A stretch of 64,000 nucleotides of DNA from a virus, in the IMG/VR virus record IMGVR_UViG_3300017605_000342, positions 64,001 to 128,000 of that record, one strand, 5' to 3'. A program made the position numbers and the translations under genes. Position 1 is the first letter of the stretch. Each line of letters starts with the position of its first letter. The notes under the pieces are model-generated. The model was not told where the DNA came from. It searched no databases and worked only from the letters and a program-made list of their open reading frames with translations. This document shows positions 30,085 through 59,220 of this stretch, piece after piece.

Positions 30085-33000
30085 TTACGAGTTGTTAAAT
30101 CCAAAACGCGACTGGTCTGCAAAGAACGCAGTCATAGGGTCAATGATCTGGTTTGGAGTGATAGGGGCACCGCCCGTATTAATGTCAATCTTAATTTGTG
30201 GTGCCCCAACGGTTACATTAGTAATGCGTGGGCTGATCTGGCTTTGTAAAGCCGGATCTAGAGAGAAGTTCCCGGTAACCGGATCTCGCTTAATACCATT
30301 GATGATAGCTTGAATGTCCTTCCATTTTTGAATCTGACGATCTAGAGACTGCTCGTCTAACTGGTTCTGACGATCTTTTAGTTTTCCAGTATCTAGTGTA
30401 AGATTAAATATCGATTTTGTTTTTTCAAAAACCTTTTGCTTTGCAGCAATCTCTAGGTTTAACAATCGTATCTGTTCTTGAGTTTCTTTCTGCTTATCTG
30501 CAAAATCTTCACGTAATTTAACTAGAGCATTACCACGTTGAACAACGCCAGCAACACGGGCCTCGATAGCATCAGCAGTTAGTAGTTCAAACTGAGCTTT
30601 GTTAAACTCTTCCTGATCTTTGACCATCTGCTTGATCAGGTCGGAACGTTGTTTGAATAGGTCGTTCAATTCAAGCGCATTTGAAATAGCTTCCTTTTCT
30701 GCATCAACTAGGTCGTCTAGTAGGTCACCCTGAAGCTTCTCCAAAGAACGTGACAAGAACTCTACAGCGTTTTGTTGTTTTTCTAGAGTGAATTCCCCTT
30801 CACGGAATGAGTCAACATATGCCTGAACTTTTTTATTAACATCGTCCCAAGCACTACTAAAATTACGCAGAGCATCATTGCCTAGACGAAGCGCCCCTAG
30901 CTCATCTTCGAAAGAATCTTGGACTTCTTGTTGTTGCTTAATTAAGTCTTTGATAGATCTATCAAATTCAGGTAGTAGCTCTTCTAACTGCTTCTTACCA
31001 CCCTTTTTACCACTCAGACGTTCAATTGCCTGTAGTCGCTGTCTTTCCAACTCCCCGATGGTTCGACCCAAAGTTTCAGACTGATCGCGGAAATTTTCTA
31101 AAGTTTTGTCAAAAGCTTTTTTAATTTTCTCAGCAAGCCGTTTAGCCGCTGCTGTAAACGCTGACGCAATCAAAGACACTACAGCTCCAGCCGCCTGAAC
31201 GATAGGACCACCGGCTCCTAGTGCTTTTTGAAATATGGTTCCTACCTGAGATAATCCGGCACCTACTGCACCACCTATGCCAGCACTTTGGAAACCTTGT
31301 ATGACAGCACTAATTGCGCCTTCTAGTTTATTAACTACAGACAACACTGAGTTACCGAATTTAGATAAACCACTTTCTCTAAGGTGTTCAAAGTCAGATG
31401 TTAGCTTAGCTAGTTCTTCTCTAAGAGGATCTATAACTTCAGGCCCTAACTTAAGCTTACTAGCTTGTTCTATGCTACTCTGGACCTGCGCGATGCGTTC
31501 TCGTAGTACTTCACGTGCCGCATCAACAGCGGTTAGATCCAACCCAGTAACATCTTCTAAAGCACGCTTACCTCTACTTGCCGTTTTTCTACGCTCAGCA
31601 ATACGCTGGTCAATTGCAGCCCGTAGCTCTGCTTGACGCAAAGCCTCAACCGCATTTTTCTGCCGTTCCAATGCCGCAATGTTTCTTAACGCGGGTTCTA
31701 ATGCAGCCTGTTGCTGTTGTAGTCTTTGAAGTTCTACTTCAGCAAGACGCAGCTCTCCGTCAGCAACTAGGTGTGCCCCTTTAGCAAGTTCTACTTGATT
31801 TTTTAATCGCTGATCGTTTGACAGCGTGCCCTGCTCTTGTACGGCTATTAGTTGCTCTAATCCCTGTTGTTCTATTTTAACAAGGTCAATAGAAATAGCT
31901 AGTAGTTCTTGAGCTTCCTTACGACGCTGAATAACTCTGCTTGCAGAGTTAGCATTCATTGCCCTAGTAAAATCTTCGTCCAATTCCTGTTGCTTTCGTT
32001 TAAAATCTCCAGACTTGTCAAAACCTTCTGTATCGCCAGTCAGCGCTTTTTGTGTGTCTTTGGCAATCTGTATTTGACGGTTTAGATCTTCTTGAGCATT
32101 TACTTGACGGCGCAATATCAAAGATTCTTGTGCATCAATAATAGCACTTTCTAATGCAACACCATCTTGAACCTGTAACTGTAGTATCTCCGCATCTGCT
32201 TCTTTTTGCAGTTCTACCCTCTTATCTTGAAACGCAGTTTCAAATGCTAGTTTCTTACCAATCGCTATGCTTAATTGTATCTCTGATAACTGATCCAACC
32301 TTGCTGATTCTCGGCGTAACTTAGCTGCTTGAGTTATCAACTGACGTTGGCGTGGAATACTGTTAGCACTTGCCGTCTTTCTTTCCCGTTCAATATCAGT
32401 GATTTCTTTTTTAATAGCTTCTTGACGTAGTTCTGTAACTTTACTGATTGTTTCGGATTCGTCAACAACACGTACTTTGTTAAATTCTTTGAACAAATCT
32501 TCGGCTTGACGTAAGGCTTCTTTAGTAGCGTCCAAGTCATCTTTAAATTTGTCTTCACGATCTTTACGTAAAATAAGATTTACATCATGACGGGCCTTTA
32601 GCTCAGCTATCTGAGAGTCTTTGATTGCCTTACCTTCAAGCTCGGCTAGTGCATTAGCGCGTTTTTCGGCATCATCTTTAGGCTCTGTTAAACCTGGAAA
32701 TCTTTTTCTTTTCTTTTCAAGTTCTTCGATTTGCTTTTCTAGTTCTTTAAGTTCTGTTTTTGCAGCTACAAGGCTGGCTTCTGTGGCAGCTTTTTCAGCA
32801 TCCGTTGCCCTACTTATGACAAGACTTTGCTTAACTCTTTTTTGAGTAAGCTTTTCGACGGTTTCTCCTAGTTGAATGACACGAATATTAGAACGTTCTA
32901 ACTCATCGTTGAACTTTTGAATGTCATCAACATCCCCGAACAGTCTTTTCTTTTCTGCTCTAATTTCTTCTATTCTATTAAACTGCTCTCTTTGAACGGA

Positions 33001-36000
33001 GTCAATTAATTCCTTAGCTTTTCCTACTTCGTTGAAAACACCCTCACTAAATCTAAGATCTGTAAGCTCACGAATTCTAGCTTCATTGCTTTCTATGCTA
33101 GAAAGAAATAACTGCAAATCCGATTCAATAAGTTCTAGGCGACGACGAACAGCTACTTGCGCATCTGCCAATCCTGTTTCAATTGCTACACCTACACTCT
33201 TACCTAGCTCTTGTGCTTCTTTAGGCAAAGCTCTTTGAGCAGCAACCAACGGGGCCTGCACAGTATTGCGCAAAAGCTCTTTCATACCCACACCACCGCT
33301 GGCAGGGGCTTTTGCAAGCTCTTTGTCAATTTCTGTGATCTTCTTTATAAGCAACTGTCTTGCTTCGAAGATTGGAACAGATCCTTTTATGATTTCTTTC
33401 TTTCTTACTTCAGAAGTTTCTTTTTCTAAAAGTCTGCTCTTTTCTATAATTTGTACATGTGTTTCTTTAAGTTCATCAAGTAATCCTGCACGTTGTGTAG
33501 TCAATTCTTGCAGTGCTTTTTCTGGAAGTTTACTTACCTCTGCTGCTCCCACTATTTGATCCAATGCTTGGTTTACAGCCTTGACAGCGTTAGCCACAGC
33601 AGCCGGACCTATAGTAACTGCACCGATAGCCCCACTACCAGTACCACGGCTCTTTTCCGCAATCTGGCGGTTCAAAGATTCCAGAGCAGTTTCCGCTCTT
33701 TCCGCATTGTCCGCAAGTGATTTGAATGGATTGATGCTTGCGATCTTAAGTAAGATAGAGGCTAAGTCTGTTACTGTAGACAGTAAACTACCAAAGACAG
33801 ATCCTAAAGAAGATGCAAAATTAGTAATAGTGTCTTCGTTTTTTTCGAAAACTTCGATGATACGCTGCAATCCTGAAAGAGAAGCGTCGAACAACCCTTT
33901 AGAGAATGCACCAGAAAATATTTTTAGAAACAGTTCAACTTTGTCTAGAAGTCGTGCAAATATTCTGTCAGATAACTGCAAGCTCTTGGCTTGGTTGCTA
34001 GACAAAGACACCAGCACTTCAAATAGATTGCCTTCTTCTTTAGCTGTTCTGACTATCGCTGCTAGTTCATCGCTTGTTCTCTTCAGTGCACGCGGCAACG
34101 CATCTCGGGCAGTTACACCTTCTGTAAGTAACTTACTGATTTCTGAAACTGTACGTCTGGCATCCTTTAAGGAAATACCAACCGAACCCAAATCCTGAAT
34201 AATAAGCTCTACGGAACCTACAGCCTTCTCGATGTCACCACCAACAGCACGTAAACCACCCGACTGCACAAAGGATTCGAATGCCTGCTGGAAAACTTCG
34301 CTCGACGTGTTTACTCTAGTCGATGCAAGTTCTAGTCGTCTAGTTAGAGCTTCGGCAGCTTCCGTTCCCAACTCAAAGTTAGTAGCAATATCCGCAGAAA
34401 ATCTGACGTTCTGTAGTAAGATTTCTCTTACTTGAATCATACGTTCTTGAAAGTCAATCAAGAATGCCAATCCCTTCTGTATTGCTAATCCAACACCTTC
34501 GATAGGTGCCAAAGCACTACTGATAAGTGGGCCAGCTAATCTCCAAGCCAACTGGAACTTAATAACCGAACCTACCGACTGTCCTATGTTCTTCTCAAAC
34601 CCTTTTAAGATCTCGTTGAAGAACGTTCCTTTAGCGTTTGCTTTATCTTGTTCACGCTGAACTTTACGCAGATCTGTAATCACCGCTGTCATTGATGGTG
34701 GAGGCGGTGTTACAGGGGGCTTAACTGGAATAGGTGGGGTACCCGGAGGCGCACCAGGAGGTGGTGCTAATCCAACACCGGGCGGATGTGCGCGTAGTTG
34801 TGCGATCTCTTTTTCAATCACACGTATGCGCTCTAGTCTCTGTTTTTCAACAGCATCTAGTTGCTTATCGACAGCTTTTGCAGCCAACACTTTTTCAGTA
34901 TTAGCTGAACTGTTAAGAAACTTTATATTGTCGTTAATGAACTGCTGACGCTTAATCTGTTCATCAGCCAATAAAGCTTTCTCTGTGTCTAGTTGTTTTT
35001 CTTTAGATTCTATCTCTCTATTGTGCTGATCTAGTAGTCTTTTTTCTTCTGCTAATCGTTCTTTTCTTAGCTTTGTGGCTTCCTTGTTACTGTCCTTGGA
35101 GATCTTAATAGTTCTCTCTGTTTCGTCAGTAAGTGTTTTAAGCTTCTTCGCACTTAGCTCATTAAATGCTGTTGCTATGTCTTCGTTAGCCTGATCTTGA
35201 GCTTTTTTATTGTCAGAGATAGTCTGTTGAAATGCCGCTTTTTCTTTCTGTGTCTTAGCTTCGTTAGCTTCTAAGGATAATTGTATACCCTTTGCTTCTA
35301 GCTCAGCTTTACGCAACACTAACTTCTCAAAGTCCGGTAGCTGTGCTTCAAAATCCTTAACTTGCTTTTCAAACGTGTCAGTACTTTTAGTAGCTGCGGG
35401 TTTGGGAACAATCTGAAGTTCTTGTAATCTCTTTAGACTACCCGCCTTGTCTATTTCGCTTAGTTTGTTATTTGCAGCAGTAGCTTCTTGCTGGCGACGG
35501 GTACTTAAATCCTTTTCAGCACGTAGCAATTCCTCGTTAAGCGCAATAATATCGGCGTTCGCTCCGCGCTTTCTTAGCTTGCTAGTAGCAATCTCCTGCT
35601 GCTCGGCCTTATCTATGGCGGCGGCGGCTGTTGTAGTTTTGCTTTTTGCATCTGCTTCTGCTGCGTCTCTTATCTTATTAAACTCGACAGAAGCTTGCTT
35701 AGATGCGGCAATAATCTTATTAGGCAACGCCCCCGCAATGCGGTCGAATTGCGTTCCAAAAGACTTCAGCAACCCTAGCTCTTCATTCAGGGTTTTCTGC
35801 AAAGTCGCAACTTCATGCTGACGCGATGCATCGTTCTGAGCTGCTAGCAAATTATCTGCGGCCTTCTCGATGTCAACACGCTTCTGTAAAAAATCCAACT
35901 GCAAAGATTCTAACTTAGCCAAATCCGCCCGAACTTTGTCGGCTTTGGGCAAACCAGTGGGCAGGTCTACAACAGCGGCTTTCAAACCTACAACAGTGTC

Positions 36001-37488
36001 CGCTCGCGCTGACTGTTTCTCGGATATGGTCTTGAAAATCTTTGCACGGTCTGCATCTAGACGCAGTTGTTTTGAAATCTCGGCAGTGATAGCCTTTTCA
36101 GTTTCAAGGGACTGTCGTTGTAGAGTATTAAGTTCTGCGGTAAGTTCTAAAGAAGCTTTTTTAAGATCTTCTATTTCCCCTTCTACTTTAGCAACATTGG
36201 CTGTTTCTTCGTTGCTTAAAGAAATACCAGTGCCTTTCTTCTTAGAAAGATCTCGTCTAAGTAACAAGGATTCATTGTCAGATTCAAGTTTACGAATCTT
36301 TGACTGTATGTCTAAGAATTCTTGTATCTTCTTATTAAGTTGTTCTTGTAAAGCTATGTTCGCCTGGATCTTTGTTGGATGTAGCGGGTTTGATACAGGC
36401 ACTTTAAATGCTGCGGCCTGTACAGCAAACGCCTTTGCGCGAGCTAGGGCATCTTCTGCTGCCTTAGAGAAATCAGTTACAGCTTCTCCAAGCGGACGAA
36501 ATGTTTCTCCTTCTTCTGTGATCTTGAACCCAACACGCTTAACCAGCTCAAGAACAGCTTTCCCACCACGTTCTGCGGTTCTAAACTGGTCCGCCTCACC
36601 GTCAGATGCAATCTTATTTAGAGCAGTTGTTGTTTCCTTCTTTGAATTAATTCGACGCTTTTCTAGCTCAGCTAAAGACTCAAAGTTCTTGCGAGCAGCA
36701 TTTAAATCGGACTTACTAACCGAACTGCTGTCTAAAGATATCTGTCTTTGTAACGACAAAAATCTTTCCAAAGAATCCAAAAATTCTGGAGAAAACCCTT
36801 TGGCTACTTTGGCAAAATCTATTCTAGTTTGTAGCAACGATGCGTCATGGATCGCTGCCATTCCTTTTCCTAAAGTGTCTAAGAACTCTTTCAGTTCTTT
36901 GGAACGCTTTGCGGCTGTTGACGAACTATTACTTAGTTTAAGAAGTTTATTAGAAAGTAATTCAAGTTTTTCTTGTGTTTCGTTAGTACCCTTGATACCA
37001 CGAAATGCATCAATAAATCCTTCACCAACTAGCTTCTTGATGGAATTAAGTTCTCTGGTAATCTTTGCTTTTTCGGCTGCTAGATTACCACCAATTTCTG
37101 TTATACCTGCTTTTTCGGCGGCCCGAGTTTTCCCAAGTTTTACTTGGATATTTTCCAAAACGGTCAGAGGGTTAGCGTCAAGTGTTTTCTGGGCAGTAGA
37201 CGCAGCTTTAGCTAGCTGTGCAGCAAGATCTTTATCATCGACCTCAAATGTAGTTTTGAAGGGCTTTGAGAAGTTCTTGTTTAAATCTTCAACAGCAGTC
37301 TTGATTAGATTTTTCTGTGTATTTAGATTTGCTTCTAACTTTGTAATAGATTTTTGATCTATGTTAAAGTTAAGAGACGTAGTAGTAATAGTCTTAGAAA
37401 AGACCTCCCACTGCTTGGCCAGTTCTTCGACCTTACGTCCGAAATCCTTCCCGTCTAATAGTACACTAAAAATTTCTTGAAATGCCAT
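30085..37488 (-). CDS. Tail tape measure protein
   Basis: 2467 aa, helical/coiled-coil, Gly/Ala hydrophobic segments, downstream of tube and chaperone. Confidence 0.9.
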   Translation of the reverse strand: MAFQEIFSVLLDGKDFGRKVEELAKQWEVFSKTITTTSLNFNIDQKSITKLEANLNTQKNLIKTAVEDLNKNFSKPFKTTFEVDDKDLAAQLAKAASTAQKTLDANPLTVLENIQVKLGKTRAAEKAGITEIGGNLAAEKAKITRELNSIKKLVGEGFIDAFRGIKGTNETQEKLELLSNKLLKLSNSSSTAAKRSKELKEFLDTLGKGMAAIHDASLLQTRIDFAKVAKGFSPEFLDSLERFLSLQRQISLDSSSVSKSDLNAARKNFESLAELEKRRINSKKETTTALNKIASDGEADQFRTAERGGKAVLELVKRVGFKITEEGETFRPLGEAVTDFSKAAEDALARAKAFAVQAAAFKVPVSNPLHPTKIQANIALQEQLNKKIQEFLDIQSKIRKLESDNESLLLRRDLSKKKGTGISLSNEETANVAKVEGEIEDLKKASLELTAELNTLQRQSLETEKAITAEISKQLRLDADRAKIFKTISEKQSARADTVVGLKAAVVDLPTGLPKADKVRADLAKLESLQLDFLQKRVDIEKAADNLLAAQNDASRQHEVATLQKTLNEELGLLKSFGTQFDRIAGALPNKIIAASKQASVEFNKIRDAAEADAKSKTTTAAAAIDKAEQQEIATSKLRKRGANADIIALNEELLRAEKDLSTRRQQEATAANNKLSEIDKAGSLKRLQELQIVPKPAATKSTDTFEKQVKDFEAQLPDFEKLVLRKAELEAKGIQLSLEANEAKTQKEKAAFQQTISDNKKAQDQANEDIATAFNELSAKKLKTLTDETERTIKISKDSNKEATKLRKERLAEEKRLLDQHNREIESKEKQLDTEKALLADEQIKRQQFINDNIKFLNSSANTEKVLAAKAVDKQLDAVEKQRLERIRVIEKEIAQLRAHPPGVGLAPPPGAPPGTPPIPVKPPVTPPPPSMTAVITDLRKVQREQDKANAKGTFFNEILKGFEKNIGQSVGSVIKFQLAWRLAGPLISSALAPIEGVGLAIQKGLAFLIDFQERMIQVREILLQNVRFSADIATNFELGTEAAEALTRRLELASTRVNTSSEVFQQAFESFVQSGGLRAVGGDIEKAVGSVELIIQDLGSVGISLKDARRTVSEISKLLTEGVTARDALPRALKRTSDELAAIVRTAKEEGNLFEVLVSLSSNQAKSLQLSDRIFARLLDKVELFLKIFSGAFSKGLFDASLSGLQRIIEVFEKNEDTITNFASSLGSVFGSLLSTVTDLASILLKIASINPFKSLADNAERAETALESLNRQIAEKSRGTGSGAIGAVTIGPAAVANAVKAVNQALDQIVGAAEVSKLPEKALQELTTQRAGLLDELKETHVQIIEKSRLLEKETSEVRKKEIIKGSVPIFEARQLLIKKITEIDKELAKAPASGGVGMKELLRNTVQAPLVAAQRALPKEAQELGKSVGVAIETGLADAQVAVRRRLELIESDLQLFLSSIESNEARIRELTDLRFSEGVFNEVGKAKELIDSVQREQFNRIEEIRAEKKRLFGDVDDIQKFNDELERSNIRVIQLGETVEKLTQKRVKQSLVISRATDAEKAATEASLVAAKTELKELEKQIEELEKKRKRFPGLTEPKDDAEKRANALAELEGKAIKDSQIAELKARHDVNLILRKDREDKFKDDLDATKEALRQAEDLFKEFNKVRVVDESETISKVTELRQEAIKKEITDIERERKTASANSIPRQRQLITQAAKLRRESARLDQLSEIQLSIAIGKKLAFETAFQDKRVELQKEADAEILQLQVQDGVALESAIIDAQESLILRRQVNAQEDLNRQIQIAKDTQKALTGDTEGFDKSGDFKRKQQELDEDFTRAMNANSASRVIQRRKEAQELLAISIDLVKIEQQGLEQLIAVQEQGTLSNDQRLKNQVELAKGAHLVADGELRLAEVELQRLQQQQAALEPALRNIAALERQKNAVEALRQAELRAAIDQRIAERRKTASRGKRALEDVTGLDLTAVDAAREVLRERIAQVQSSIEQASKLKLGPEVIDPLREELAKLTSDFEHLRESGLSKFGNSVLSVVNKLEGAISAVIQGFQSAGIGGAVGAGLSQVGTIFQKALGAGGPIVQAAGAVVSLIASAFTAAAKRLAEKIKKAFDKTLENFRDQSETLGRTIGELERQRLQAIERLSGKKGGKKQLEELLPEFDRSIKDLIKQQQEVQDSFEDELGALRLGNDALRNFSSAWDDVNKKVQAYVDSFREGEFTLEKQQNAVEFLSRSLEKLQGDLLDDLVDAEKEAISNALELNDLFKQRSDLIKQMVKDQEEFNKAQFELLTADAIEARVAGVVQRGNALVKLREDFADKQKETQEQIRLLNLEIAAKQKVFEKTKSIFNLTLDTGKLKDRQNQLDEQSLDRQIQKWKDIQAIINGIKRDPVTGNFSLDPALQSQISPRITNVTVGAPQIKIDINTGGAPITPNQIIDPMTAFFADQSRFGFNNS

Positions 37489-47735: not shown

Positions 47736-48074
47736 TTACTCGTTATTCCCAGTACGTACTTTAACTTCTGCCGGAATTACCCATTTACCTTGAATACCAG
47801 ATTGTACAGCTACAATCTCTAGTTTATAACCACCACCTAGTGTTGGATTAAAAGTTTCTTGGATAGGTCCTCGATACATACCATTACTTGCTACCACGTA
47901 AGACAGCGTAATTGCATTGACTTCAGGTACTATGTCTCCGTCTCTGTCTTTAAGGGTAGCAGTCACAGTTGCGGCGTTGAAATACGACGCGTCATCCAAC
48001 CCGTCATGGAGTTCGTCGATTTCCACATACATATCATTTTCAATAAATAGTGTTACTTTGGTTGGTATTGCCAT
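47736..48074 (-). CDS. Small Ig-like structural protein (BppU N-terminal-like)
   Basis: ATVTATLKD.DG, NGMYRG, GYKLEI strands; start MAIPTK. Confidence 0.55.
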   Translation of the reverse strand: MAIPTKVTLFIENDMYVEIDELHDGLDDASYFNAATVTATLKDRDGDIVPEVNAITLSYVVASNGMYRGPIQETFNPTLGGGYKLEIVAVQSGIQGKWVIPAEVKVRTGNNE

Positions 48075-48085
48075 TAAATGTCCCC

Positions 48086-48901
48086 TTAGATGCCTACTAC
48101 TCTGAACCAATCAGATAGCATATGAGCGCCTGAACTAGATGTTTGCAGGCAGTAGCCTACCTGATCAAAGCTAGTAATGTACGTCGCAATGGTTTCAGAG
48201 TATACCGTTCTCCAGTCCGTCTCCGCACTATCTCCAGACGCTACTCTAAAAACAATGTTTGTACCATCATTCTCAATAGCTAGCATTGTTCTAGCCGATC
48301 TAGTCAGTTCAATGTCGGCAGTCAGTGCGTTCGCGTTGAACGTTGACGAGTCAGTATTTTTCTGAATAAGCACCTCACCAATATGAGAGGATAGTAGGCA
48401 TATCAACCTACCATTGCTGTTATTACGCACGAACAACCCACCGTATGTAGCAGACGATCCTACTGGTAGAACAGTGATTGGTGCGTAATACCTTTTGTTA
48501 GTTGGTGACGAAGCTGTTTTGTAAAGATATGCACCACGACCAGAAGTACCGGAAGTAGCAGACATACGTAACAGGCTGGGTGTCAAATTGTTCACGTCTG
48601 CAACTACTACTGAATGGTTATCATAGGTCCACCCAGATGGCGGATCGGCATTGGCACCTTCCCACTCTTCGTCTTCAGAAGCGTCTCGTCTCGGCCAACC
48701 TGGTTGATCTACTGGCCTCCACAACGCCCCAGAAGAATCCTTAAAGTACAGCTTATTGTCCTTACTTAATTTATATAGCTGAGTCGCGCTAGCACCACCC
48801 ACACTTGGCAAACTTGTCACTTCAATCATGTCATCCTCTTCTGATCTAACTGCATTTGTATAAATAAATGTGTCGGTGAAATCTATTATAGCTCTAGGCA
48901 T
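48086..48901 (-). CDS. Putative virion beta-sandwich/lectin protein
   Basis: LYFKDSSG fibre-like segment; DGTNIVFR, SDWFRV. Confidence 0.55.
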   Translation of the reverse strand: MPRAIIDFTDTFIYTNAVRSEEDDMIEVTSLPSVGGASATQLYKLSKDNKLYFKDSSGALWRPVDQPGWPRRDASEDEEWEGANADPPSGWTYDNHSVVVADVNNLTPSLLRMSATSGTSGRGAYLYKTASSPTNKRYYAPITVLPVGSSATYGGLFVRNNSNGRLICLLSSHIGEVLIQKNTDSSTFNANALTADIELTRSARTMLAIENDGTNIVFRVASGDSAETDWRTVYSETIATYITSFDQVGYCLQTSSSGAHMLSDWFRVVGI

Positions 48902-51274: not shown

Positions 51275-54200
51275 TTATTCATCATCCTTACATGCTGCAA
51301 GATCAACATCGGCTTGCACTGCCTTGACTATATCAGCCGACCCAACAACAGCCGCAGGGATAACTTCGGCAGTATTGGTTACTGCTGCTGGTATAACATC
51401 AGCCGCCAGCACAACAGCCGCAGGGATAACATCAGCAGTGTTTGTGACACTAGCTGGAGTAACTTCAGCAGTGTTGGTTACCATAGCCAAAATAACGGCG
51501 ATGGTAGTTAGACACATTGTTCTTAAAATAAACAACGACTGATCTGGTGTCAGATGTATTTGCTGAATTAACCATGATTTTACAAAATGTGTAAAAATCG
51601 GTTCGTTGGTTTGTAACAACCAATCCAAGTCAATCAGAGGAGTATTGAACTCCATTCCACTAATTAGTGAAAGCAACTCGGCACGGAACTTTGCTGATCG
51701 AGTGATTTCGGTAAACGCCGGCAACCACGTAGAAAGATCAAAGATTTCTTCACGTTTTACAAAAGATAACCGTGATAGTTCAACAGAGTTCTTTCTCCCT
51801 AACAGCGTTGGAACAAAGTTCTCTTTGAACCACTTGTCCAAAGTAACCACTTCACTAGGAGTAAACTGGAATGTGCCGTTTCTGTCTATAAGTGCGAATC
51901 TCTTCTGGGGACGCTCTAGTTCTCTAGCCCATTTATCCAGAGTTACTTGCTCTCCGCTAGGAGTAAACTGGAATGCACTACCCTTATCTAGTAGTGTTAA
52001 CTTCTTAGCTGGGCGTTCTAATTCTTTAAACCACTTATCGACAGTAACACCACCATCTTGGCGTGGAACCACTACTCCCAGAACATCACGGAAAAATTTC
52101 TTAGAGAAGATCGGGTTGTGATCTTTGTACCACTTATCAACCGTAGTTCTCTCGGCTTGTGTTAGCTGTCTTGGATCAATTGCGTAATACCCCGTACGAA
52201 TAAGAGGAATGCGGGTTGTGGGTGGTATACCAGTTTCTCTGAACCAACGATCCACGGGAACTCTAAACTCGCGTGTATCCATAACAGACACACCCTCTCT
52301 TACCAAGCGAAGCTTATCTCTCTGTGGTACAGACAACTGCTGCCAATACTTATCCAAGTCAATTCTGAACTGCTTGGCATCAAACACACTAGCCCCTTCA
52401 CGCACCAACTGTGGTGGAAATCTTCTAGGTTCTGCTAGTTGTCGCCAGTACTTATCCAGTGTAATTCTTTCTGCTTGTGTCAATTGTCGCGGGTCAATAG
52501 TGAACCACCCAGGCAATCTTGGGGCAGCTTTCTTTGGCGGTGTTTCTGTTTCTTTAAACCACCGATCTGAAAACGCAGACGTGTCCTCGTATCTAAACGG
52601 AGAAACTGAATGATCATACTGGGGCAATTCACGAATAGGCAAATACAAACTAGTCTTAGTACCAACCACAAAGCTAACTATAAACCGTGGTAAAACCTGA
52701 GATTGGCTTTCACGAACTAGCGGTAACACGCTGCGTCTTGGTTCTGAAAGTGGTCCCCACCACTTATCTACAGTTACTATTTCTTGTTGCTGTTGGTACG
52801 GAGGATATACCGAAGTATCGCGCAAACTTGGTCTAGCTTTGTTGAAGTCTAGATAAAAAGTACCATCCTGTCCCACAACAAATGAGATATCTTTTGCATC
52901 TATAAACTCATTAACATAAGGTGTTAATTGCTTTTGTATGCGCTTATACTCTTGTTGATAAACAAACTTATCCACATCAATTCTAAACTGCTTAGGATCA
53001 AAACCAGACACGCCCTCTTTCACTAGCTCAGACTTAGAACGACGTGGCTCTGACAACTGCTGCCAGTACTTATCGATGGTACTGCGTTCAGCCTGAATCA
53101 ATTGATATGGATCTATTGTGTACCCCTCTTTCACCAACGGCTTAGCAGTCTTTGGAGGTGTCTGAGTTTCACGATACCATCTATCCAGATCTACCCTGAA
53201 TTCTTTTAGATCAAACGCAGAAATGCCTTGCTTCAACAGTTGGGCCGAAGTTCTTACTGGTGTTTCAGTATTACGATACCAACCGTCCAGTCTCGCAACA
53301 AACTGTCTTACATCGAAAATACTAAGACCTTCTCTGACAAGTGCTGGTTTGGAACGCACTGGTTCTGTTAGTTGTTGCCAATACTTATCAACTGTAGAAC
53401 GCTCAGCCTGTGTTAACTGACGTGGATCAATAGTGAACGCACCTTCACGAACTAGTGGCATACGTTGCCAAATAGTCTTTTCAGTTTCCTTGAACCATTT
53501 ATCTACAGTTATTGTTTCACCACGAGAAACTAAGTCCTTCGCAAAAAATCCTTCTGGTACTAATGGTTTCTTTGTCCAAAGTGTTCTTGCAGTTTCTCTG
53601 TACCACTTATCCAACGTACTATTCTCAGCCTGTGTTAGCTGTCTAGGATCTATGACAAATAAACCCTCACGCACAAGCGGTCGAACCCTATCCGGTGGCG
53701 TCCCAGTCAGTCTAAACCATCTATCTAATGGTACCAGAAGCTCGTGTGGGTCTGTAACAGATATACCAGATCTAGGTAGTATCTTAGCTAACGGCATCGG
53801 CTCAAAAATATTTCTAAACCACTTATCTACTGTAGATGTTTCTCCAGTAAAGAACGGGGCGGCTTTACCTTGGTACTGAAACTTGGTTAGATATCTTAAA
53901 TGCAAGTCATTGGTTACAACTGCAATTACGTCAGGCTGTGAAAACGGATACGTAGGAAACGTACTTTGTTGCCCTGTGATAAGTGGATCACGTAATGGCA
54001 AGTAAATACTTGTCTTTGTACCTACTGCGTATCTCACAGTAAATTCAGTGAACGCCTGCGTATGACCTTCTCTAACCAACTGGCGCGGCACCATTCTTGG
54101 CTGATTAGGTAATTGGTAATGCTTGTCTATCGTCACTATCTCTTGCTGCTGTTGGTATGCGGGTGCTGCCAACATATCCAACGTCGCTAATCTAGCCTTA

Positions 54201-54730
54201 CCAAAAGGACGGTACGACACTTGATAGTACTTGTCGATAGAACTACGTTCAGCCTGTGTTAATTGTACAGGGTCGATTATTGAAATACCTGTCTTAACTA
54301 GTGGCTTGTAAACATTGGGCGATCTCTCAGTTTCCTTAAACCACTTATCCAAGTTAATCGGAAATTCAGCTTGAGCATCTTTCGAGAAATGGCCTTCAGC
54401 GACCAGCTCTCTGCGAACCATCTTCGGTTGATTTGGCTGCTGCCAGTATTTGTCAACCGTGCTGCGTTCAACCTGTGTTAGCTGTCGCGGATCTACAGAA
54501 AAATGCCCTTCTGGTACAAGGTACTTCGGAAATTGTTTTGGCTGATTTGGTACTTGGTAATACTTATCTAAAAAAACAACTACCGGAAAAGAGGCAACAA
54601 ACGGTGGTTCAGCCTTAATCTGATACTGGAACCGCTCGTCAACCCCAATAGCTGTACTATCAAGTTCGACTTGAAGAGTGGGTGATGCCCCTCCAACATC
54701 TGTTCCACCAAATAGCAATAGCAAAGACAT
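51275..54730 (-). CDS. 1151-aa tandem repeat protein (D[KR][WY] repeats), function unknown
   Basis: About 23 clear 33-38 aa units; MSLLLLFGG N-terminus; 11-aa repeats at C-terminus. Confidence 0.9.
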   Translation of the reverse strand: MSLLLLFGGTDVGGASPTLQVELDSTAIGVDERFQYQIKAEPPFVASFPVVVFLDKYYQVPNQPKQFPKYLVPEGHFSVDPRQLTQVERSTVDKYWQQPNQPKMVRRELVAEGHFSKDAQAEFPINLDKWFKETERSPNVYKPLVKTGISIIDPVQLTQAERSSIDKYYQVSYRPFGKARLATLDMLAAPAYQQQQEIVTIDKHYQLPNQPRMVPRQLVREGHTQAFTEFTVRYAVGTKTSIYLPLRDPLITGQQSTFPTYPFSQPDVIAVVTNDLHLRYLTKFQYQGKAAPFFTGETSTVDKWFRNIFEPMPLAKILPRSGISVTDPHELLVPLDRWFRLTGTPPDRVRPLVREGLFVIDPRQLTQAENSTLDKWYRETARTLWTKKPLVPEGFFAKDLVSRGETITVDKWFKETEKTIWQRMPLVREGAFTIDPRQLTQAERSTVDKYWQQLTEPVRSKPALVREGLSIFDVRQFVARLDGWYRNTETPVRTSAQLLKQGISAFDLKEFRVDLDRWYRETQTPPKTAKPLVKEGYTIDPYQLIQAERSTIDKYWQQLSEPRRSKSELVKEGVSGFDPKQFRIDVDKFVYQQEYKRIQKQLTPYVNEFIDAKDISFVVGQDGTFYLDFNKARPSLRDTSVYPPYQQQQEIVTVDKWWGPLSEPRRSVLPLVRESQSQVLPRFIVSFVVGTKTSLYLPIRELPQYDHSVSPFRYEDTSAFSDRWFKETETPPKKAAPRLPGWFTIDPRQLTQAERITLDKYWRQLAEPRRFPPQLVREGASVFDAKQFRIDLDKYWQQLSVPQRDKLRLVREGVSVMDTREFRVPVDRWFRETGIPPTTRIPLIRTGYYAIDPRQLTQAERTTVDKWYKDHNPIFSKKFFRDVLGVVVPRQDGGVTVDKWFKELERPAKKLTLLDKGSAFQFTPSGEQVTLDKWARELERPQKRFALIDRNGTFQFTPSEVVTLDKWFKENFVPTLLGRKNSVELSRLSFVKREEIFDLSTWLPAFTEITRSAKFRAELLSLISGMEFNTPLIDLDWLLQTNEPIFTHFVKSWLIQQIHLTPDQSLFILRTMCLTTIAVILAMVTNTAEVTPASVTNTADVIPAAVVLAADVIPAAVTNTAEVIPAAVVGSADIVKAVQADVDLAACKDDE
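51317..51481 (-). repeat. Five degenerate 33-bp (11-aa) tandem repeats
   Basis: VTNTAEVTPAS/VTNTADVIPAA/VVLAADVIPAA/VTNTAEVIPAA/VVGSADIVKAV. Confidence 0.85.
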
Positions 54731-54733: not shown

Positions 54734-55429
54734 TTATATACCAAACATACCGGCTGACCCAACTGGGTCCACCATGCTGATTCCAGTGCCAGAAACGTAG
54801 AACTCCATCACAATAATTCCCCACGCAGTTGTGTTTGCGTTAGTCCAAGTAATCGTCGATCCAGTCTCACCACTTGCACGAGACGCAGTTTCCTGACTAT
54901 GTGCTGGATTGGTAAAAGATACCTCTGAGCTTGCGATTTCTCCCCATGATCCTGGGGCAGTCCACTGAGCTGCTGAGTTGGTTGTATTCGTCGCAAACCC
55001 CAAACAGCCGTTACCTGTAAGAATAGCAGCATCCATAGTAACTGCGGGATTTGCAGAAGAGCCTGTAGCCGTCTTGAATTGACGCAGTAAAGGATTAGTC
55101 GTTGAATCACCACCAGTCACACGAACCACATGCATCGCACTACCGGTGGAATTTCCTGAAATTGTATAGACAGGAGTCGTTGAAGTGGCGGCTGTAGCAG
55201 CAGCATAAAATATGAAGATTGTATCTGCGCCAGCATTTTTTGTAAAGCTTGTTAAGAAGTACCACGTCCAAGCACCAGACATGGAACCGACAGCGGTATT
55301 ACCGGTCACGCTTACACAAGCAATTAACAGGTCACCAGCCGCTGGCGTTCCAGCAGTACCAGTGTGATTAGCTGCGTTGTTAGATGTGTTCGCTGAAGCT
55401 GCCGCCAAAGCTGTAAAGGCTAGTGCCAT
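54734..55429 (-). CDS. Ser/Thr/Ala-rich virion beta-sandwich protein
   Basis: AGDLLIACV motif, WTAPGSW. Confidence 0.6.
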   Translation of the reverse strand: MALAFTALAAASANTSNNAANHTGTAGTPAAGDLLIACVSVTGNTAVGSMSGAWTWYFLTSFTKNAGADTIFIFYAAATAATSTTPVYTISGNSTGSAMHVVRVTGGDSTTNPLLRQFKTATGSSANPAVTMDAAILTGNGCLGFATNTTNSAAQWTAPGSWGEIASSEVSFTNPAHSQETASRASGETGSTITWTNANTTAWGIIVMEFYVSGTGISMVDPVGSAGMFGI

Positions 55430-55605: not shown

Positions 55606-55610
55606 AGTCC

Positions 55611-56429: not shown

Positions 56430-57716
56430 TTAGTAACCTACCTGTTTTCTACTTTTGTAAAAGTTTATGTTTGATGCAGAAACAAACGGAGACAAACTAG
56501 CCGCTGTTACACGTATGTCATCAAACCACATGGTGTGTGCGTTAGTTGCCGAACTATCCAAGTCTATAGTAGTGATTGAAGCATAGCTGCCGGTATTAAC
56601 AGTATTCCAAGGGGTCCATGATCCACCGTCGATTCGCGCCCTATACTGATTCGGCTGGTTAGTGTTATCAAACTGCATCTCGCATTGATACCACGTATCA
56701 GCCGAATAAGCTTGAATCGTTTCGTACACCCCACCGCTATCGTCATACGTTTCTATGTTACCTGTTGGGCCGAATCTAATATACATCCGACCACCAGTAT
56801 TACCAATCGATGACCTTAACGTCACACCTATATTGTCATTAGGATTGGTGATACTGATACGCATTCTCCAAGAAACGCTTCCCGCAGAAAGCGGGGCAAT
56901 TTCTCGGTAGTAATGAGTTTCAGTAGTTGTATTGGCCCGTACCGCTTTGCCGCCTTGACCACCGGATGGAGCAACTTCAACACTCTTATGACCAGTCGTT
57001 GGAGTAGACCAGCCCGTTAAAAACGCAGCCCAAGGACTCACCCAATTCGCACCGTCAGACAAACCAACCAATTCGGCACCAGTCGCGTAACTATCAAAAG
57101 AATCTGCCGCCACCCACGAAGTTCCTAATGCTACTGATCGGATGTCATCAACATAGGCAACTGCATTAAATCCAGTCTCAGCATCAATGTGAAACCGTGA
57201 AATGCTGGCGTAAGATCCACCGTCTACAGACTTAAAAGCACTCCAGTAAGAATCATTGATTCGAACTCGATACAAACCAGGATGGTCAGTATTATCAAAG
57301 TGAACCACAATGGTATACCAAGTATTGGCGGCGTATGTTTGTAAAGTATCGTAGACGACGGTATTCCCATTCCATATCTTGATGGTTCCGTCAGACGCAA
57401 AGTTCACAAACATCTTACCGTTTGTACTGTCATCCAATACGATCTTAAAATCACCGCTTGGGGACGCGGAATCCAGCCGTACTCTGTAAGAAACAAACCC
57501 TTGCGTAATAGCAGTCATACTACGATGGTACTCTGAAAGTGGGTCGGCATTACAACGCACTGCGTTGCCACCCTGTCCGCCACTGGGAGCCGTTTCGATG
57601 GTCAACACACCAGCCACTTGCGTCCATGCGGAAGTCCAGTTGCTACCACCATTCTTGCCGTTTAGGTCATTTGTTAGTGTGTAGCTATCAAAGTCATCTG
57701 TTGCAATCCAAGCCAT
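56430..57716 (-). CDS. Tandem two-domain lectin-like (concanavalin-type) protein
   Basis: Internal ~200-aa duplication: D.FDSY, APSGGQGG, TWY, DDIR each occur twice. Confidence 0.75.
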   Translation of the reverse strand: MAWIATDDFDSYTLTNDLNGKNGGSNWTSAWTQVAGVLTIETAPSGGQGGNAVRCNADPLSEYHRSMTAITQGFVSYRVRLDSASPSGDFKIVLDDSTNGKMFVNFASDGTIKIWNGNTVVYDTLQTYAANTWYTIVVHFDNTDHPGLYRVRINDSYWSAFKSVDGGSYASISRFHIDAETGFNAVAYVDDIRSVALGTSWVAADSFDSYATGAELVGLSDGANWVSPWAAFLTGWSTPTTGHKSVEVAPSGGQGGKAVRANTTTETHYYREIAPLSAGSVSWRMRISITNPNDNIGVTLRSSIGNTGGRMYIRFGPTGNIETYDDSGGVYETIQAYSADTWYQCEMQFDNTNQPNQYRARIDGGSWTPWNTVNTGSYASITTIDLDSSATNAHTMWFDDIRVTAASLSPFVSASNINFYKSRKQVGY

Positions 57717-57997
57717 TATCTAAGTACCGATATCTTACCGTTCTCAAAATCTTCCATACGTTTCTCAAATGGGTAACATTTTGCAATACATGCGGGCGCA
57801 CCACAAAGCCAAGAATCGCACTTAGTGCAATAACCGCGTAATACACCACTACCTTTCACAGAAATACAGTGTTTATGGCAATGACCACATTGAAGTGTCT
57901 GCGCGATTTCCTCGCCATCTGCGAGGATATATCCTGACGGTTTTCTGCTTGTTGTGGCAGATTCACCGGGTTCGAGGATTAGTTTGCCTTCCGCCAT
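57716..57997 (-). CDS. Cys-rich zinc-binding protein
   Basis: TLQCGHC, KGSG..RGYCTKC, LCG..C...C.PFEK. Confidence 0.7.
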   Translation of the reverse strand: MAEGKLILEPGESATTSRKPSGYILADGEEIAQTLQCGHCHKHCISVKGSGVLRGYCTKCDSWLCGAPACIAKCYPFEKRMEDFENGKISVLR

Positions 57998-58140
57998 TAC
58001 CCAATTCTCCAATTAGTTCCCCAACTGTGGGATATGGACTTTTTCTTACCACTAGCCAACATAGCTTCCTGAGTTCTGCGATAAGCTTTTTCTTCTTCTG
58101 TAAGGGGAAATAATGCGGCTGTAAAAACACATACTATCAT
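57997..58140 (-). CDS. Small hypothetical protein
   Basis: Fills the gap; TAATG coupling. Confidence 0.4.
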   Translation of the reverse strand: MIVCVFTAALFPLTEEEKAYRRTQEAMLASGKKKSISHSWGTNWRIG

Positions 58141-58141: not shown

Positions 58142-58351
58142 TTAACCTGCCTTTTGTTTTTGAAGCATGTAGTTGTTAAATGCGCGGTTTTTCTCGGCAC
58201 ATAAAACACAATGCATATCTTGGTTTATCTTGGTGTCTAGGCCACAAGACATACATTTGTGGGGTTGTGGGGTTGGTTCAACTAGTATGATGTTTTGAAA
58301 CTTTTCGTCATCTATCTGATTGTTCTGTTTAAGGTAGATCGGTTGTGACAT
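58142..58351 (-). CDS. Small zinc-finger protein
   Basis: CMSCG...CVLC. Confidence 0.5.
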   Translation of the reverse strand: MSQPIYLKQNNQIDDEKFQNIILVEPTPQPHKCMSCGLDTKINQDMHCVLCAEKNRAFNNYMLQKQKAG

Positions 58352-58676
58352 CACGTTCTTCTTTCTTATGCTTTTTACTATAAACAGCCACCGAATCTGG
58401 AAGTGGGGCCTTAGGGTACTTCTCTTTGAAAGCATCCAAATAACAGTCAACACAATACTCTGCGAAAATTGATTCTCTACCATTTACACCCAAAACAGGT
58501 CTTAAATGGAAGTGGTGTGGGACTGGAGATTGAAACCCATTTCCCTGCATATTTAGGTACTGTTCTAGAGTATCTCCACACGCATTACATGAACGTCCTG
58601 CTGTCGTGTTTTCGCGCCATCCTGCACAGATCTCACAAGCACCATCCTGCTCGTCGATCAAAACTGGTCTTACCAT
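58329..58676 (-). CDS. Cys-rich zinc-binding protein
   Basis: CEIC, CNAC, CVDC; AAGGA RBS. Confidence 0.6.
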   Translation of the reverse strand: MVRPVLIDEQDGACEICAGWRENTTAGRSCNACGDTLEQYLNMQGNGFQSPVPHHFHLRPVLGVNGRESIFAEYCVDCYLDAFKEKYPKAPLPDSVAVYSKKHKKEERDVTTDLP

Positions 58677-58770: not shown

Positions 58771-59220
58771 TTACTCTTCGAACAAAATTGTGTAGGTCAT
58801 TGCAACAGCAGACCCACCGATAGCGTTCTGTAATAGCCCGATACCGTTAGATGCTGTAGACGGTGCTTTCAACTCACTTCCCGGTGCAGCGACCCAACGG
58901 AATGTCGCACGTTGGTTTGTTGCAAAACGAAGTAAGATTGTGTTTGCGGTGTAGGTAGGTTCTACAGAGTGGTTAACCTTCACCACAGATGTACCTGCCG
59001 GATCACCAGAATCTAGCGCTGCGTAGGTAAAGGTTGTACCAGTACCGTCAGCAGTGTAACGCTGTAGGATGTACTCACCAGCGTTGTCGGCGGGTGTTGC
59101 TACCGAACCCACCAACACGTCATAAATTAACGGACGAACTGCTGCTGTCGCTGTGATAGAAATCGCAGACGTGCTAGCAGTGTTTGTATCCGTAGTTGCT
59201 ACTGAATATTTTCTTGCCAT
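58771..59220 (-). CDS. 149-aa Thr/Ala-rich structural protein, candidate high-copy subunit
   Basis: ATPADNA, NQRATFRWVAAPGSEL; strong AGGAG RBS; 3' stem-loop. Confidence 0.7.
   Translation of the reverse strand: MARKYSVATTDTNTASTSAISITATAAVRPLIYDVLVGSVATPADNAGEYILQRYTADGTGTTFTYAALDSGDPAGTSVVKVNHSVEPTYTANTILLRFATNQRATFRWVAAPGSELKAPSTASNGIGLLQNAIGGSAVAMTYTILFEE

What the first reader, a model, noticed from the sequence alone, without database searches (positions are those of the whole stretch)
51275..54730. 1151-aa D[KR][WY] repeat protein: candidate ruler or multivalent scaffold
Seen: about 23 clear units of 33-38 aa (consensus roughly T[VL]DK[WY][FWY].....P......LVREG....DP.Q), alternating long IDPRQLTQAERST and short FD..[QE]FR subtypes; a higher-order duplication (QQQQEIVT.DK...VGTKTS.YLP.R twice); a hydrophobic MSLLLLFGG start; an 11-aa repeat tail. 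It is Pro-rich, Cys-free across the repeats, and not like a helical tape measure or any repeat family I recognise. Inference: an extended chain in which each unit binds one subunit or ring of a partner, setting filament length or valency.
Basis: partly seen in the sequence, partly recalled or inferred. Interest (0 to 1): 0.8.

Follow-up and report, generated by a model that had tools for sequence, protein, structure and literature searches.

The report
Phage Trp-Pro repeat protein family
The 1151-residue repeat protein is real and belongs to an undescribed family from uncultured phages that is always encoded after a small jelly-roll protein and a zinc-ribbon protein near the head genes, so it is probably an extended multi-site tether on the virion rather than a tail ruler, though no binding was tested.

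Summary
Window 51275-54730 (minus strand) is an intact 1151-aa ORF with 23 D[KRG][WYFH] units spaced 33-38 aa; shuffled sequences give 1.5 +/- 1.2. The 11-aa repeat tail is also present.

The ORF is not the tail tape measure. It lies between the large terminase and the portal. A Pro-poor 2467-aa ORF after the major tail gene fills the tape-measure position.

No Pfam, PHROGs, NCBIfam, PADLOC or PDB family matches. A profile search still finds 533 clusters, all from uncultured phages.

AlphaFold2 with an 87-row alignment predicts a non-globular chain (pLDDT 59). Only the long-type motifs are locally ordered.

The main new result is synteny.
- Every family member with enough upstream DNA lies downstream, on the same strand, of an adjacent gene pair. 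The pair is the 149-aa protein, a confident jelly roll (pLDDT 94), and a 98-aa Cys-rich protein.
- The pair itself is adjacent in 91 of 94 loci.
- The cassette sits in head-gene modules of unrelated phage lineages.

Family hallmarks are an N-terminal [FW]QY[QP]..P motif and, in 23% of members, a Cys at the C-terminus.

My best reading is a flexible, multivalent, virion-surface tether linked to the jelly-roll protein. The same stretch was noted by other first readers of this genome, but nothing like it was found on other DNA in this scan.

The parts
51275..54730 (-). Whole ORF of the DKW-repeat protein (1151 aa, P0001)
   Evidence: 100% self-match in the virus record
54596..54730 (-). N-terminal 45 aa: MSLLLLFGG start and the family motif FQYQIKAEPP (aa 34-43)
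   Evidence: The motif [FW]QY[QP]..P is found 18 times in 3813 ORFs, always in an ORF downstream of the jelly-roll gene.
51776..54595 (-). Repeat region, aa 46-985: 23 units of 33-38 aa. Family consensus LTQPETVTLDKWFQPLSEPVRVK.
   Evidence: units conserved across 160 relatives
53852..54040 (-). Non-repeat insert 1 (aa 231-293): VGTKTS.YLP segment and a second FQYQ motif
   Evidence: conserved in orthologues
52568..52933 (-). Non-repeat inserts 2 and 3 (aa 600-721) around one unit: predicted helix, a beta-hairpin (SFVVGQDGTFYLD) and the second VGTKTS.YLP segment
51479..51775 (-). C-terminal non-repeat domain (aa 986-1084) ending in a hydrophobic segment, aa 1066-1084 (Kyte-Doolittle 19-residue mean 2.27)
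51275..51478 (-). Tail of 11-aa repeats (aa 1085-1151) ending AACKDDE, with a conserved Cys near the C-terminus
   Evidence: A Cys near the C-terminus is enriched in the family: 37/160 against 1.5% expected.
58771..59220 (-). 149-aa jelly-roll protein (P0161), the conserved first gene of the cassette
   Evidence: AF2 pLDDT 94.4, all-beta. Structural neighbours: Ena1B Z 9.7, KHP40 cement protein Z 8.5. More than 739 relatives of 148-156 aa. Upstream of every evaluable DKW gene.
57716..58012 (-). 98-aa Cys-rich protein, probably zinc-binding (likely start ATG at 57997). It is the obligate neighbour of the jelly-roll gene.
   Evidence: Adjacent to the jelly-roll gene in 91/94 loci, median gap 4 nt. 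Seven conserved Cys and one His.
58329..58676 (-). 115-aa second Cys-rich small protein, with relatives in 13 loci
47736..48110 (-). 124-aa small protein. In other phages its relatives lie directly after the repeat gene.
   Evidence: L006, L010, L002
48086..51309 (-). Variable genes downstream of the repeat gene: 523-aa beta-helix, 277-aa ConA-like lectin, 271-aa protein
   Evidence: orthologues in L002
54734..57716 (-). Variable genes between the Cys-rich gene and the repeat gene: 428-aa protein with a sialidase-like CBM match and two sequence-similar halves, 272-aa, 62-aa and 231-aa proteins
   Evidence: LamG-type proteins hold this position in many loci.
30085..37488 (-). 2467-aa ORF, the likely true tape measure (not part of the finding; listed to exclude that role)
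   Evidence: It lies after the major tail gene. Pro 2.2%, Ala+Leu+Glu+Lys 42%, Pro-free runs up to 229 aa. No family hit confirms it.

Best explanation
P0001 is a large member of an undescribed family of phage late proteins that I call DKW-repeat proteins. On its own it is a non-globular, extended chain.

Its layout is:
- a conserved N-terminal [FW]QY[QP]..P motif;
- a variable number of 33-44-aa units with the core LTxxExxTxDKWxxPxxEPxR;
- a short-period C-terminal tail that often ends in Cys.

It is the third conserved part of a mobile cassette. The cassette runs: jelly-roll protein, Cys-rich (zinc-ribbon-like) protein, zero to five variable lectin-like or beta-helix proteins, the DKW protein, then a small roughly 100-aa protein. 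It sits in or beside the head-morphogenesis genes of unrelated tailed phages.

Most likely mechanism (inferred). The abundant jelly-roll protein decorates the head, like the jelly-roll cement proteins of BPP-1 and KHP40. The DKW chain is a flexible multivalent tether on that layer. It is anchored by its N-terminal motif and beta segments. Each DKW unit is a short docking motif that takes one copy of the jelly-roll protein (or the jelly-roll/zinc-ribbon pair), so the chain strings or cross-links many copies and may display the co-encoded lectin-like proteins.

Shown: the repeats, the family, the synteny, the predicted lack of a globular fold, and the jelly-roll fold of the partner. Inferred: virion location, binding, and stoichiometry.
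For: - Repeats are real and far beyond chance.
- The family has 533 clusters at E<=1e-3 and 273 at E<=1e-10, all from metagenomes or viromes.
- AF2 with an 87-row alignment gives pLDDT 59 and pTM 0.20, almost all coil. pLDDT rises to about 80 only at the three long-type motifs, which form two short helical turns. This is the usual picture for linear motifs that fold on binding.
- Synteny from the repeat side: a jelly-roll gene lies upstream on the same strand in L002, L004, L005, L006, L089, L090, L093-L096, L098 and L112, and 15 kb upstream in L097/L045. The only loci without one have under 1.3 kb of upstream DNA.
- Synteny from the jelly-roll side: 39 of 94 loci carry a DKW ORF 0.24-7.3 kb downstream, always on the same strand. 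That is 36 of the 67 loci with at least 8 kb downstream.
- In the minimal form the three genes abut or overlap (L010, L016, L084, L028).
- Jelly-roll and Cys-rich genes are adjacent in 91/94 loci, median gap 4 nt.
- Head-module position. In L093 the order is portal, MuF-like, protease, a 424-aa protein, jelly roll ... DKW, then head-tail adaptor. In L004 the cassette lies after a Linocin_M18-type capsid gene. In L006 it lies between the portal and the Mu-type protease. In the P0012 contig it lies after a Phage_capsid_4 gene. Here it lies between TerL and the portal.
- The jelly roll is confidently folded (pLDDT 94.4). Its structural neighbours include phage cement and turret proteins and Ena pilus subunits.
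- BPP-1's cement protein is a 140-aa jelly roll (PMC3863775).
- The jelly-roll gene has the same TTTAGGAG ... TATGGCA start context as the capsid gene.
- The jelly roll has constant length and no fused form was found.
- Neighbours are carbohydrate-binding types: ConA-like/LamG, beta-helix, sialidase-like CBM, PKD, Big_7. Rare fusions within the family are to Laminin_G_3, viral BACON and a head completion protein.
Against: - No direct evidence that any cassette protein is in virions. No cultured phage carries the jelly-roll gene: the only GenBank phage hit is one uncultured record, and P0001 has no match in the GenBank phage collection.
- The jelly-roll protein is 45-60% identical across phages with unrelated portals and capsid proteins. 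That is unusual for a protein that must fit a specific capsid lattice.
- It stays equally conserved in clades that lack DKW genes, so DKW binding cannot be what constrains it.
- The conserved N-terminal motif fits end-anchoring with free repeats as well as it fits unit-by-unit binding.
- Some cassette neighbours in other phages begin with signal-peptide-like segments, and P0001 has a transmembrane-grade hydrophobic segment. Both are odd for parts assembled in the cytoplasm.
- Low AF2 confidence can also mean an obligate homo-oligomeric fibre that a monomer prediction cannot fold.
Confidence: 0.38

Rival explanations
1. Autonomous adhesin or fibre. The chain is fixed to the virion only by its N-terminal motif. 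The Trp/Pro/Arg-rich units bind a repetitive host or environmental polymer (glycan, cell wall, mucus), or simply act as a spacer stalk. They do not bind the jelly-roll protein.
For: - The N-terminal motif is conserved even in relatives whose repeats lack the DKW core.
- Repeat number changes quickly by whole units, as in adhesins and stalks.
- Aromatic-rich repeats are typical of polymer-binding modules (general knowledge).
- Neighbours are lectin-like or beta-helix proteins.
- The jelly-roll protein stays conserved in clades without DKW genes.
Against: - No match to any known cell-wall- or carbohydrate-binding repeat family.
- AF2 finds no solenoid or beta-hairpin stack of the kind such repeats usually form.
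- The strictly conserved DKW core with fixed flanks looks more like a protein-docking motif than a glycan site. This is inference.
Confidence: 0.25
2. Assembly scaffold or ruler. The chain templates polymerisation of the jelly-roll subunit into a filament or ring stack, one unit per subunit or ring, so that repeat number sets the length of a head or neck appendage. It may or may not stay in the mature particle.
For: - The best structural neighbour of the jelly roll is the Ena1B pilus subunit (Z 9.7); Ena3A, Ena2A and the Ena1C ring also score.
- Obligate co-occurrence with the jelly-roll gene.
- Extended multi-motif chain.
- Strong start context of the jelly-roll gene.
Against: - About half of the jelly-roll loci have no DKW gene within 10 kb, so the subunit does not need it.
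- Z values of 8-10 for small jelly rolls are near the background this tool reports.
- The jelly-roll protein lacks the Cys-bearing connector of Ena subunits.
- Close orthologues differ by whole units.
Confidence: 0.15
3. A role in the infected cell rather than in the virion. The protein is tail-anchored in the membrane by its C-terminal hydrophobic segment and works with exported cassette proteins, for example to remodel the envelope or exclude other phages.
For: - Hydrophobic segment at aa 1066-1084, conserved in orthologues.
- Signal-peptide-like N-termini on cassette neighbours in L004, L012, L059 and L071.
- A small protein with a transmembrane segment carries the same C-terminal tail.
- Glycosyltransferase genes lie at or in the cassette here and in L006.
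Against: - Most family members have hydrophilic tails and no hydrophobic segment.
- The cassette is embedded in late structural operons next to capsid genes.
- The jelly-roll gene shares the capsid gene's start context.
- No defence-system family matches.
Confidence: 0.15
4. The protein is the tail tape measure.
For: Only its length and repetitiveness.
Against: - It lies between the terminase and the portal, 12 kb from the tail genes.
- Pro occurs at least every 33 residues and no long helices are predicted.
- A helix-type 2467-aa ORF occupies the tape-measure position.
Confidence: 0.01

Closest known systems
Jelly-roll cement or decoration proteins of HK97-type phages (BPP-1 Bbp16, KHP40 trimeric cement protein). 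Relevant to the 149-aa partner.
   Same: - Small stand-alone eight-stranded jelly roll: 149 aa here, 140 aa in Bbp16 (PMC3863775).
- Structural match to the KHP40 cement protein: Z 8.5, rmsd 2.8 over 102 residues.
- Encoded close to the capsid gene in most loci.
   Different: - No sequence similarity.
- Far more conserved than the capsid proteins it travels with.
- Always paired with a Cys-rich protein, which known cement proteins are not (own knowledge).
- Capsid binding untested.
Extended minor capsid 'tape-measure' or cement proteins of jelly-roll viruses (PRD1 P30, PBCV-1 P2, adenovirus cement proteins). Own knowledge; not tested here.
   Same: A works-like analogy only: long, largely unfolded chains that contact a periodic array of jelly-roll subunits.
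   Different: - No homology.
- Those viruses build their shell from double jelly rolls, whereas this phage has an HK97-type capsid gene.
- Those proteins lack tandem sequence repeats of this kind.
- Repeat number here is not fixed among relatives.
Phage tail tape measure proteins
   Same: Long and repetitive, with aromatic residues at regular spacing.
   Different: - Wrong gene position.
- Pro-rich and not helical.
- No TMP family hit.
- Another ORF fills that role.
Bacillus Ena endospore appendage subunits (7a02, 8pdz, 9i0y). Relevant to the partner.
   Same: Best structural neighbours of the 149-aa protein (Z 8.0-9.7, about 96 aligned residues).
   Different: - 4-9% identity.
- No Cys-bearing N-terminal connector.
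- The Z values are near the range this tool reports as common for small beta sandwiches.
Multivalent disordered repeat scaffolds such as carboxysome CsoS2 (own knowledge)
   Same: A works-like analogy: a repetitive, mostly unfolded chain whose short motifs each engage one copy of a folded partner.
   Different: No sequence relation, a different biological setting, and binding not shown here.
Pfam DUF6926 (PF21977)
   Same: A stretch of about 19-22 residues of each long-type unit resembles positions 14-37 of the 73-position model.
   Different: - P0001 scores 23.6 bits against a cut-off of 27.
- No single stretch passes.
- Only a third of the model is covered, so this is a motif coincidence and not membership.

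Membership tests
Tail tape measure protein | Gene lies between the tail chaperone genes and the distal tail or baseplate genes | tested here: not met
   The ORF lies between TerL (62326-63651) and the portal (45103-46695). The major tail gene is at 39245-39862 and is followed by the 2467-aa ORF.
Tail tape measure protein | Long, mostly alpha-helical, Pro-poor chain | tested here: not met
   Pro 7.6%, longest Pro-free run 33 aa. AF2 shows only 4-5-residue helical turns within the repeat units.
Tail tape measure protein | Match to TMP profiles (Pfam or PHROGs) | tested here: not met
   No TMP family among the hits.
Pfam DUF6926 | Whole-protein score above the gathering threshold, covering the domain | tested here: not met
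   23.6 bits against 27; only model positions 16-37 of 73 are matched; no stretch passes on its own.
Trimeric phage fibre (beta-helix, collagen-like or coiled-coil shaft) | Shaft repeat type (Gly-X-Y, heptads, beta-helical turns) and homotrimer formation | tested here: inconclusive
   No Gly-X-Y or heptad pattern in the sequence and no fibre family hit. The monomer AF2 model is unfolded, which does not exclude an obligate trimer. The homo-oligomer prediction could not be run.
Cell-wall or choline-binding type aromatic repeats | Match to the repeat profiles and a beta-hairpin solenoid fold | tested here: not met
   No such Pfam family at E<=1; no beta-hairpin stack in the AF2 model (low confidence).
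Jelly-roll capsid cement protein (for the 149-aa partner) | Eight-stranded jelly-roll fold of about 120-150 aa | tested here: met
   AF2 pLDDT 94.4, ten strands, no helix. KHP40 cement protein Z 8.5; GP4 and Pam1 capsid entries Z 6.8-7.1.
Jelly-roll capsid cement protein (for the 149-aa partner) | Binds the outer capsid surface at defined lattice positions | not testable with these tools
   This needs virion proteomics or cryo-EM, and no cultured phage carries the gene.
DKW-repeat family (defined here) | At least two units matching the family unit profile, encoded downstream of the jelly-roll and Cys-rich gene pair on the same strand | tested here: met
   23 units. The jelly-roll gene is at 58771-59220 and the Cys-rich gene at 57716-58012, both upstream on the same strand.
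Known anti-phage defence systems | Match to PADLOC models | tested here: not met
   No hit for the repeat protein, the jelly-roll protein or the Cys-rich proteins.

The most novel reading that the evidence does not exclude
The jelly-roll protein, the zinc-ribbon protein and the DKW chain form a self-contained, horizontally mobile appendage kit for HK97-type phages. An intrinsically unfolded chain would carry a row of docking motifs that arranges a defined number of jelly-roll subunits, and through them lectin-like cargo, into a beads-on-a-string filament or a net over the capsid. The size and valency of the structure would then be written in the number of repeats. This would be a tailed-phage counterpart of the tape-measure minor capsid proteins of jelly-roll viruses.
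Probability: 0.2. Interest if true: 0.85.

Novelty: new variant of a known kind. Interest (0 to 1): 0.62.

Why it matters
Three linked protein families have no annotation in any library searched:
- the repeat chain (533 clusters);
- a jelly-roll protein (more than 739 relatives);
- a Cys-rich partner.

Together they form a cassette that recurs in the structural gene blocks of many unrelated uncultured phages. That makes it a sizeable piece of phage 'dark matter' with a clear genetic signature and testable partners.

If the chain does dock many jelly-roll subunits, it would be a new way for tailed phages to build or organise surface structures, using a disordered multi-motif chain instead of a folded fibre. 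It would also be a modular, repeat-tunable scaffold of possible use for display. If it proves to be a plain adhesin stalk, the value is mostly in annotation.

Tried and rejected
- Family libraries. Pfam, PHROGs, NCBIfam and PADLOC scans of the repeat protein gave only sub-threshold motif coincidences: Peptidase_M24_C, DUF6926, aRib and MORC2 chromo-like.
- GenBank phages. tblastn of P0001 found no match.
- ESM Atlas feature search gave no usable hit.
- PDB. The family alignment found nothing by sequence. Foldseek with the low-confidence repeat model found nothing meaningful, as expected.
Binding therefore remains untested.
- Possible fusion of the upstream 231-aa protein with the N-terminus of relative P0010: no significant similarity.
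- Fused, longer forms of the jelly-roll protein: none found, which the tool itself rates as weak evidence.
- Context of P0147, the small protein that shares the C-terminal tail: its contig is only 723 nt, so nothing could be learned.
- The search for related loci with the 87-row alignment failed for lack of a conserved block. The 3-row alignment worked.
- The tape-measure reading was rejected on gene position and composition.
- A strict ruler for capsid size was not supported. Among contigs of about 35-60 kb the protein ranges from about 250 to about 940 aa. Contig completeness is unknown, so this is weak.


Full report
**1. The observation**

The ORF lies on the minus strand at 51275-54730 and encodes 1151 aa without stops.
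- It has 23 D[KRG][WYFH] anchors spaced 33-38 aa, with three larger gaps.
- The same pattern occurs 1.5 +/- 1.2 times in 2000 shuffles, at most 6.
- A unit profile built from relatives recognises 23 units.
- The long (DPxQLTQAExxTxDKW) and short (FDxxxFRxxxD[KR]W) subtypes are present. So are the duplicated QQQQEIVT...VGTKTS.YLP block, the MSLLLLFGG start, the Cys-free repeats and the 11-aa tail.
- Only the tail is also repeated at DNA level. The 33-38-aa units have diverged as DNA while the protein motif is kept.

**2. Setting**

The window is part of a 160.9-kb IMG/VR virus record estimated 77% complete. On the minus strand the gene order is:
- large terminase;
- a roughly 15.6-kb block of unannotated genes that contains this ORF;
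- portal, scaffold, HK97-type capsid protein, adaptor, major tail protein;
- a 2467-aa ORF and distal tail genes.

The 2467-aa ORF has a tape-measure-like composition: Pro 2.2%, Pro-free runs up to 229 aa. P0001 has a Pro at least every 33 residues. P0001 is therefore not the tail ruler.

**3. No known family, but a large family**

Pfam, PHROGs, NCBIfam, PADLOC and PDB sequence searches give nothing above threshold. The recurring DUF6926 and MORC2-chromo hits cover about 20 residues of the motif only.

A word-based search found 20 relatives. A profile of three orthologues found 533 clusters at E<=1e-3 and 273 at E<=1e-10. All show the same 33-44-aa period.

Close orthologues differ by insertion or deletion of whole units. 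Rare fusions in the family are to a ConA-like lectin domain, a viral BACON domain and a head completion protein.

**4. Fold**

AlphaFold2 on aa 290-640 with an 87-row alignment gives pLDDT 59.4 and pTM 0.20, almost entirely coil.
- Confidence rises to about 80 only over the three long-type motifs, which form two short helical turns.
- One non-repeat insert forms a helix and a hairpin.
- There is no solenoid. Foldseek finds nothing.
- This fits a chain that is extended on its own. It does not exclude an obligate oligomer.

**5. The partner genes**

All-against-all comparison of neighbours in four distant loci showed that the 149-aa gene (58771-59220), two small Cys-rich genes and a 124-aa gene travel with the repeat gene.

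The 149-aa protein:
- It has more than 739 relatives of 148-156 aa, 55-95% identical, and none is annotated.
- No longer fused form was found.
- It folds confidently (pLDDT 94.4) as an all-beta jelly roll.
- Its structural neighbours are Ena pilus subunits (Z 9.7), the trimeric cement protein of phage KHP40 (Z 8.5), XepA/YomS, the HFTV1 turret, BclA/C1q-type heads and small-virus capsid jelly rolls.
- These Z values are near the tool's stated background, so they indicate a fold class and not a function.
- BPP-1's cement protein is a 140-aa jelly roll (PMC3863775).

**6. Synteny statistics**

I fetched 80 viral loci through the jelly-roll protein and 10 through the repeat protein. I added the assembly loci and searched them all with profiles.

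| Test | Result |
|---|---|
| Jelly-roll and 98-aa Cys-rich genes adjacent on the same strand | 91 of 94 loci, median gap 4 nt |
| DKW ORF downstream of the jelly-roll gene, same strand | 39 of 94 loci, 0.24-7.3 kb away |
| Same, among loci with at least 8 kb downstream | 36 of 67 |
| Repeat-protein loci with enough upstream DNA that carry the pair upstream | all of them |

- For the last row. In L097 the pair is 15 kb upstream, as shown by L045.
- In the smallest form the three genes abut or overlap (L010, L016, L084, L028).
- On a jelly-roll tree the DKW label is clustered: 10 changes against 21 in shuffles.
- Several DKW-less clades carry proteins with the same N-terminal motif but other Trp/Pro repeats.

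**7. Where the cassette sits**

- L093: portal, MuF-like, protease, a 424-aa protein, then the cassette, then head-tail adaptor, Neck1, major tail protein and a long ORF.
- L004: after a Linocin_M18-type capsid gene and before the tail terminator.
- L006: between a Mu-type portal and the protease.
- The P0012 contig: after a Phage_capsid_4 gene.
- L112: after an SU10-type portal and further head-region genes.
- An uncultured 39-kb GenBank phage: after terminase, portal and three further ORFs.
- L007, a P22-portal phage: after an adaptor and a beta-helix protein.

The cassette is therefore mobile among lineages but stays in the late structural region, mostly the head module. The variable genes inside it are LamG/ConA-like, Gly-rich, PKD/Big and beta-helix proteins. 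A small protein of about 100 aa often follows the repeat gene.

**8. Further family hallmarks**

- The motif [FW]QY[QP]...P occurs 18 times in 3813 ORFs of these loci. Every instance is in an ORF downstream of the jelly-roll gene. P0001 has it at aa 34-43 and again at aa 283-292.
- C-terminal tails are short-period repeats (9-11 aa).
- 37 of 160 members have a Cys in the last eight residues, often the very last one. That compares with 1.5% expected from an overall Cys frequency of 0.19%. P0001 ends AACKDDE.
- P0001 and its orthologues also have a hydrophobic segment at aa 1066-1084.

**9. Interpretation**

What is shown:
- a real repeat protein;
- a new, widespread phage family;
- obligate genetic linkage to a jelly-roll and Cys-rich gene pair;
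- location in the structural region;
- a predicted non-globular state.

What is inferred: that the jelly roll is a head decoration protein, and that the chain is a multivalent tether whose units dock it.

Points against, or left open:
- The jelly roll is conserved beyond what lattice fitting would predict, and it is equally conserved where DKW is absent.
- End-anchoring through the N-terminal motif is an equally good reading.
- Some neighbours have signal-peptide-like starts.

I rate the docking-tether model at about 0.38. The rivals are an autonomous adhesin or stalk at 0.25, a filament scaffold or ruler at 0.15, a role in the infected cell at 0.15, and a tape measure at about 0.01.

**10. 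Distribution**

The jelly-roll gene occurs in one GenBank phage record, from an uncultured phage. It also occurs on 11 small MAG contigs from soil and groundwater phyla. The system is therefore known only from uncultured phages, and its host is unknown.

Noticed in passing
window 57716-59220 (-): The 149-aa jelly-roll gene and the 98-aa Cys-rich gene form an obligate adjacent pair in 91/94 phage loci. Neither family has any annotation. About half of the loci have no DKW gene, so the pair has a function of its own.
   Followed up: partly
window 46695-47651 (-) and 61268-62326 (-): The block between terminase and portal is bracketed by a family-2 glycosyltransferase (28.2 bits, cut-off 23.3) and a weaker GT2-like gene (16.6 bits). 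In L006 a GT9 and a TylF-type methyltransferase lie inside the cassette. Cassette proteins may be glycosylated.
   Followed up: no
L005 748-1173; contig of P0020 (no DNA held): Small Asp/Arg hydroxylase-family genes lie a few genes upstream of DKW genes in two unrelated contigs. Each DKW unit has an invariant Asp, so hydroxylation of the repeats is conceivable.
   Followed up: no
window 60522-60947 (-): Stand-alone Prok-JAB (JAMM) protein next to the terminase, conserved in the syntenic relative L002. It has weak matches to the PADLOC BilC and JAB models.
   Followed up: no
window 55429-55617, 58142-58483, 58329-58676, 59380-59676 (-): Four more small Cys-rich (CxxC-type) ORFs lie in the same block. 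Only the 115-aa one has relatives in other loci (13 loci).
   Followed up: partly
window 30085-37488 (-): The 2467-aa probable tape measure has no Tyr and no Cys, and matches no PHROG, Pfam-derived or PDB family. At the usual 0.15 nm per residue it would imply a tail of about 370 nm.
   Followed up: partly
P0147 (L100, 723-nt contig): A 150-aa protein with an N-terminal transmembrane segment carries nearly the same C-terminal 11-aa repeat tail, ending AACKDN, as P0001. The tail is therefore a separable module.
   Followed up: partly
L004 5697-8522; L059, L012, L071 (ORFs after the Cys-rich gene): Several large cassette neighbours (PKD, Ig-like, beta-helix) begin with signal-peptide-like segments. 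That is unexpected for virion parts.
   Followed up: no
L007 13497-15104; L008 15908-17746: Proteins with an N-terminal Gly_rich_2 domain carry a few weak DKW units, FQYQ-like motifs and, in L008, an 11-aa repeat tail. The repeat module can therefore be combined with a folded head domain.
   Followed up: partly
L112 9301-9999; L005 1456-2136; L004 8523-9191 and 9214-9960: A family of beta-rich proteins of about 220-250 aa often sits just upstream of DKW genes. The window's 231-aa protein at the same position is not detectably related.
   Followed up: partly
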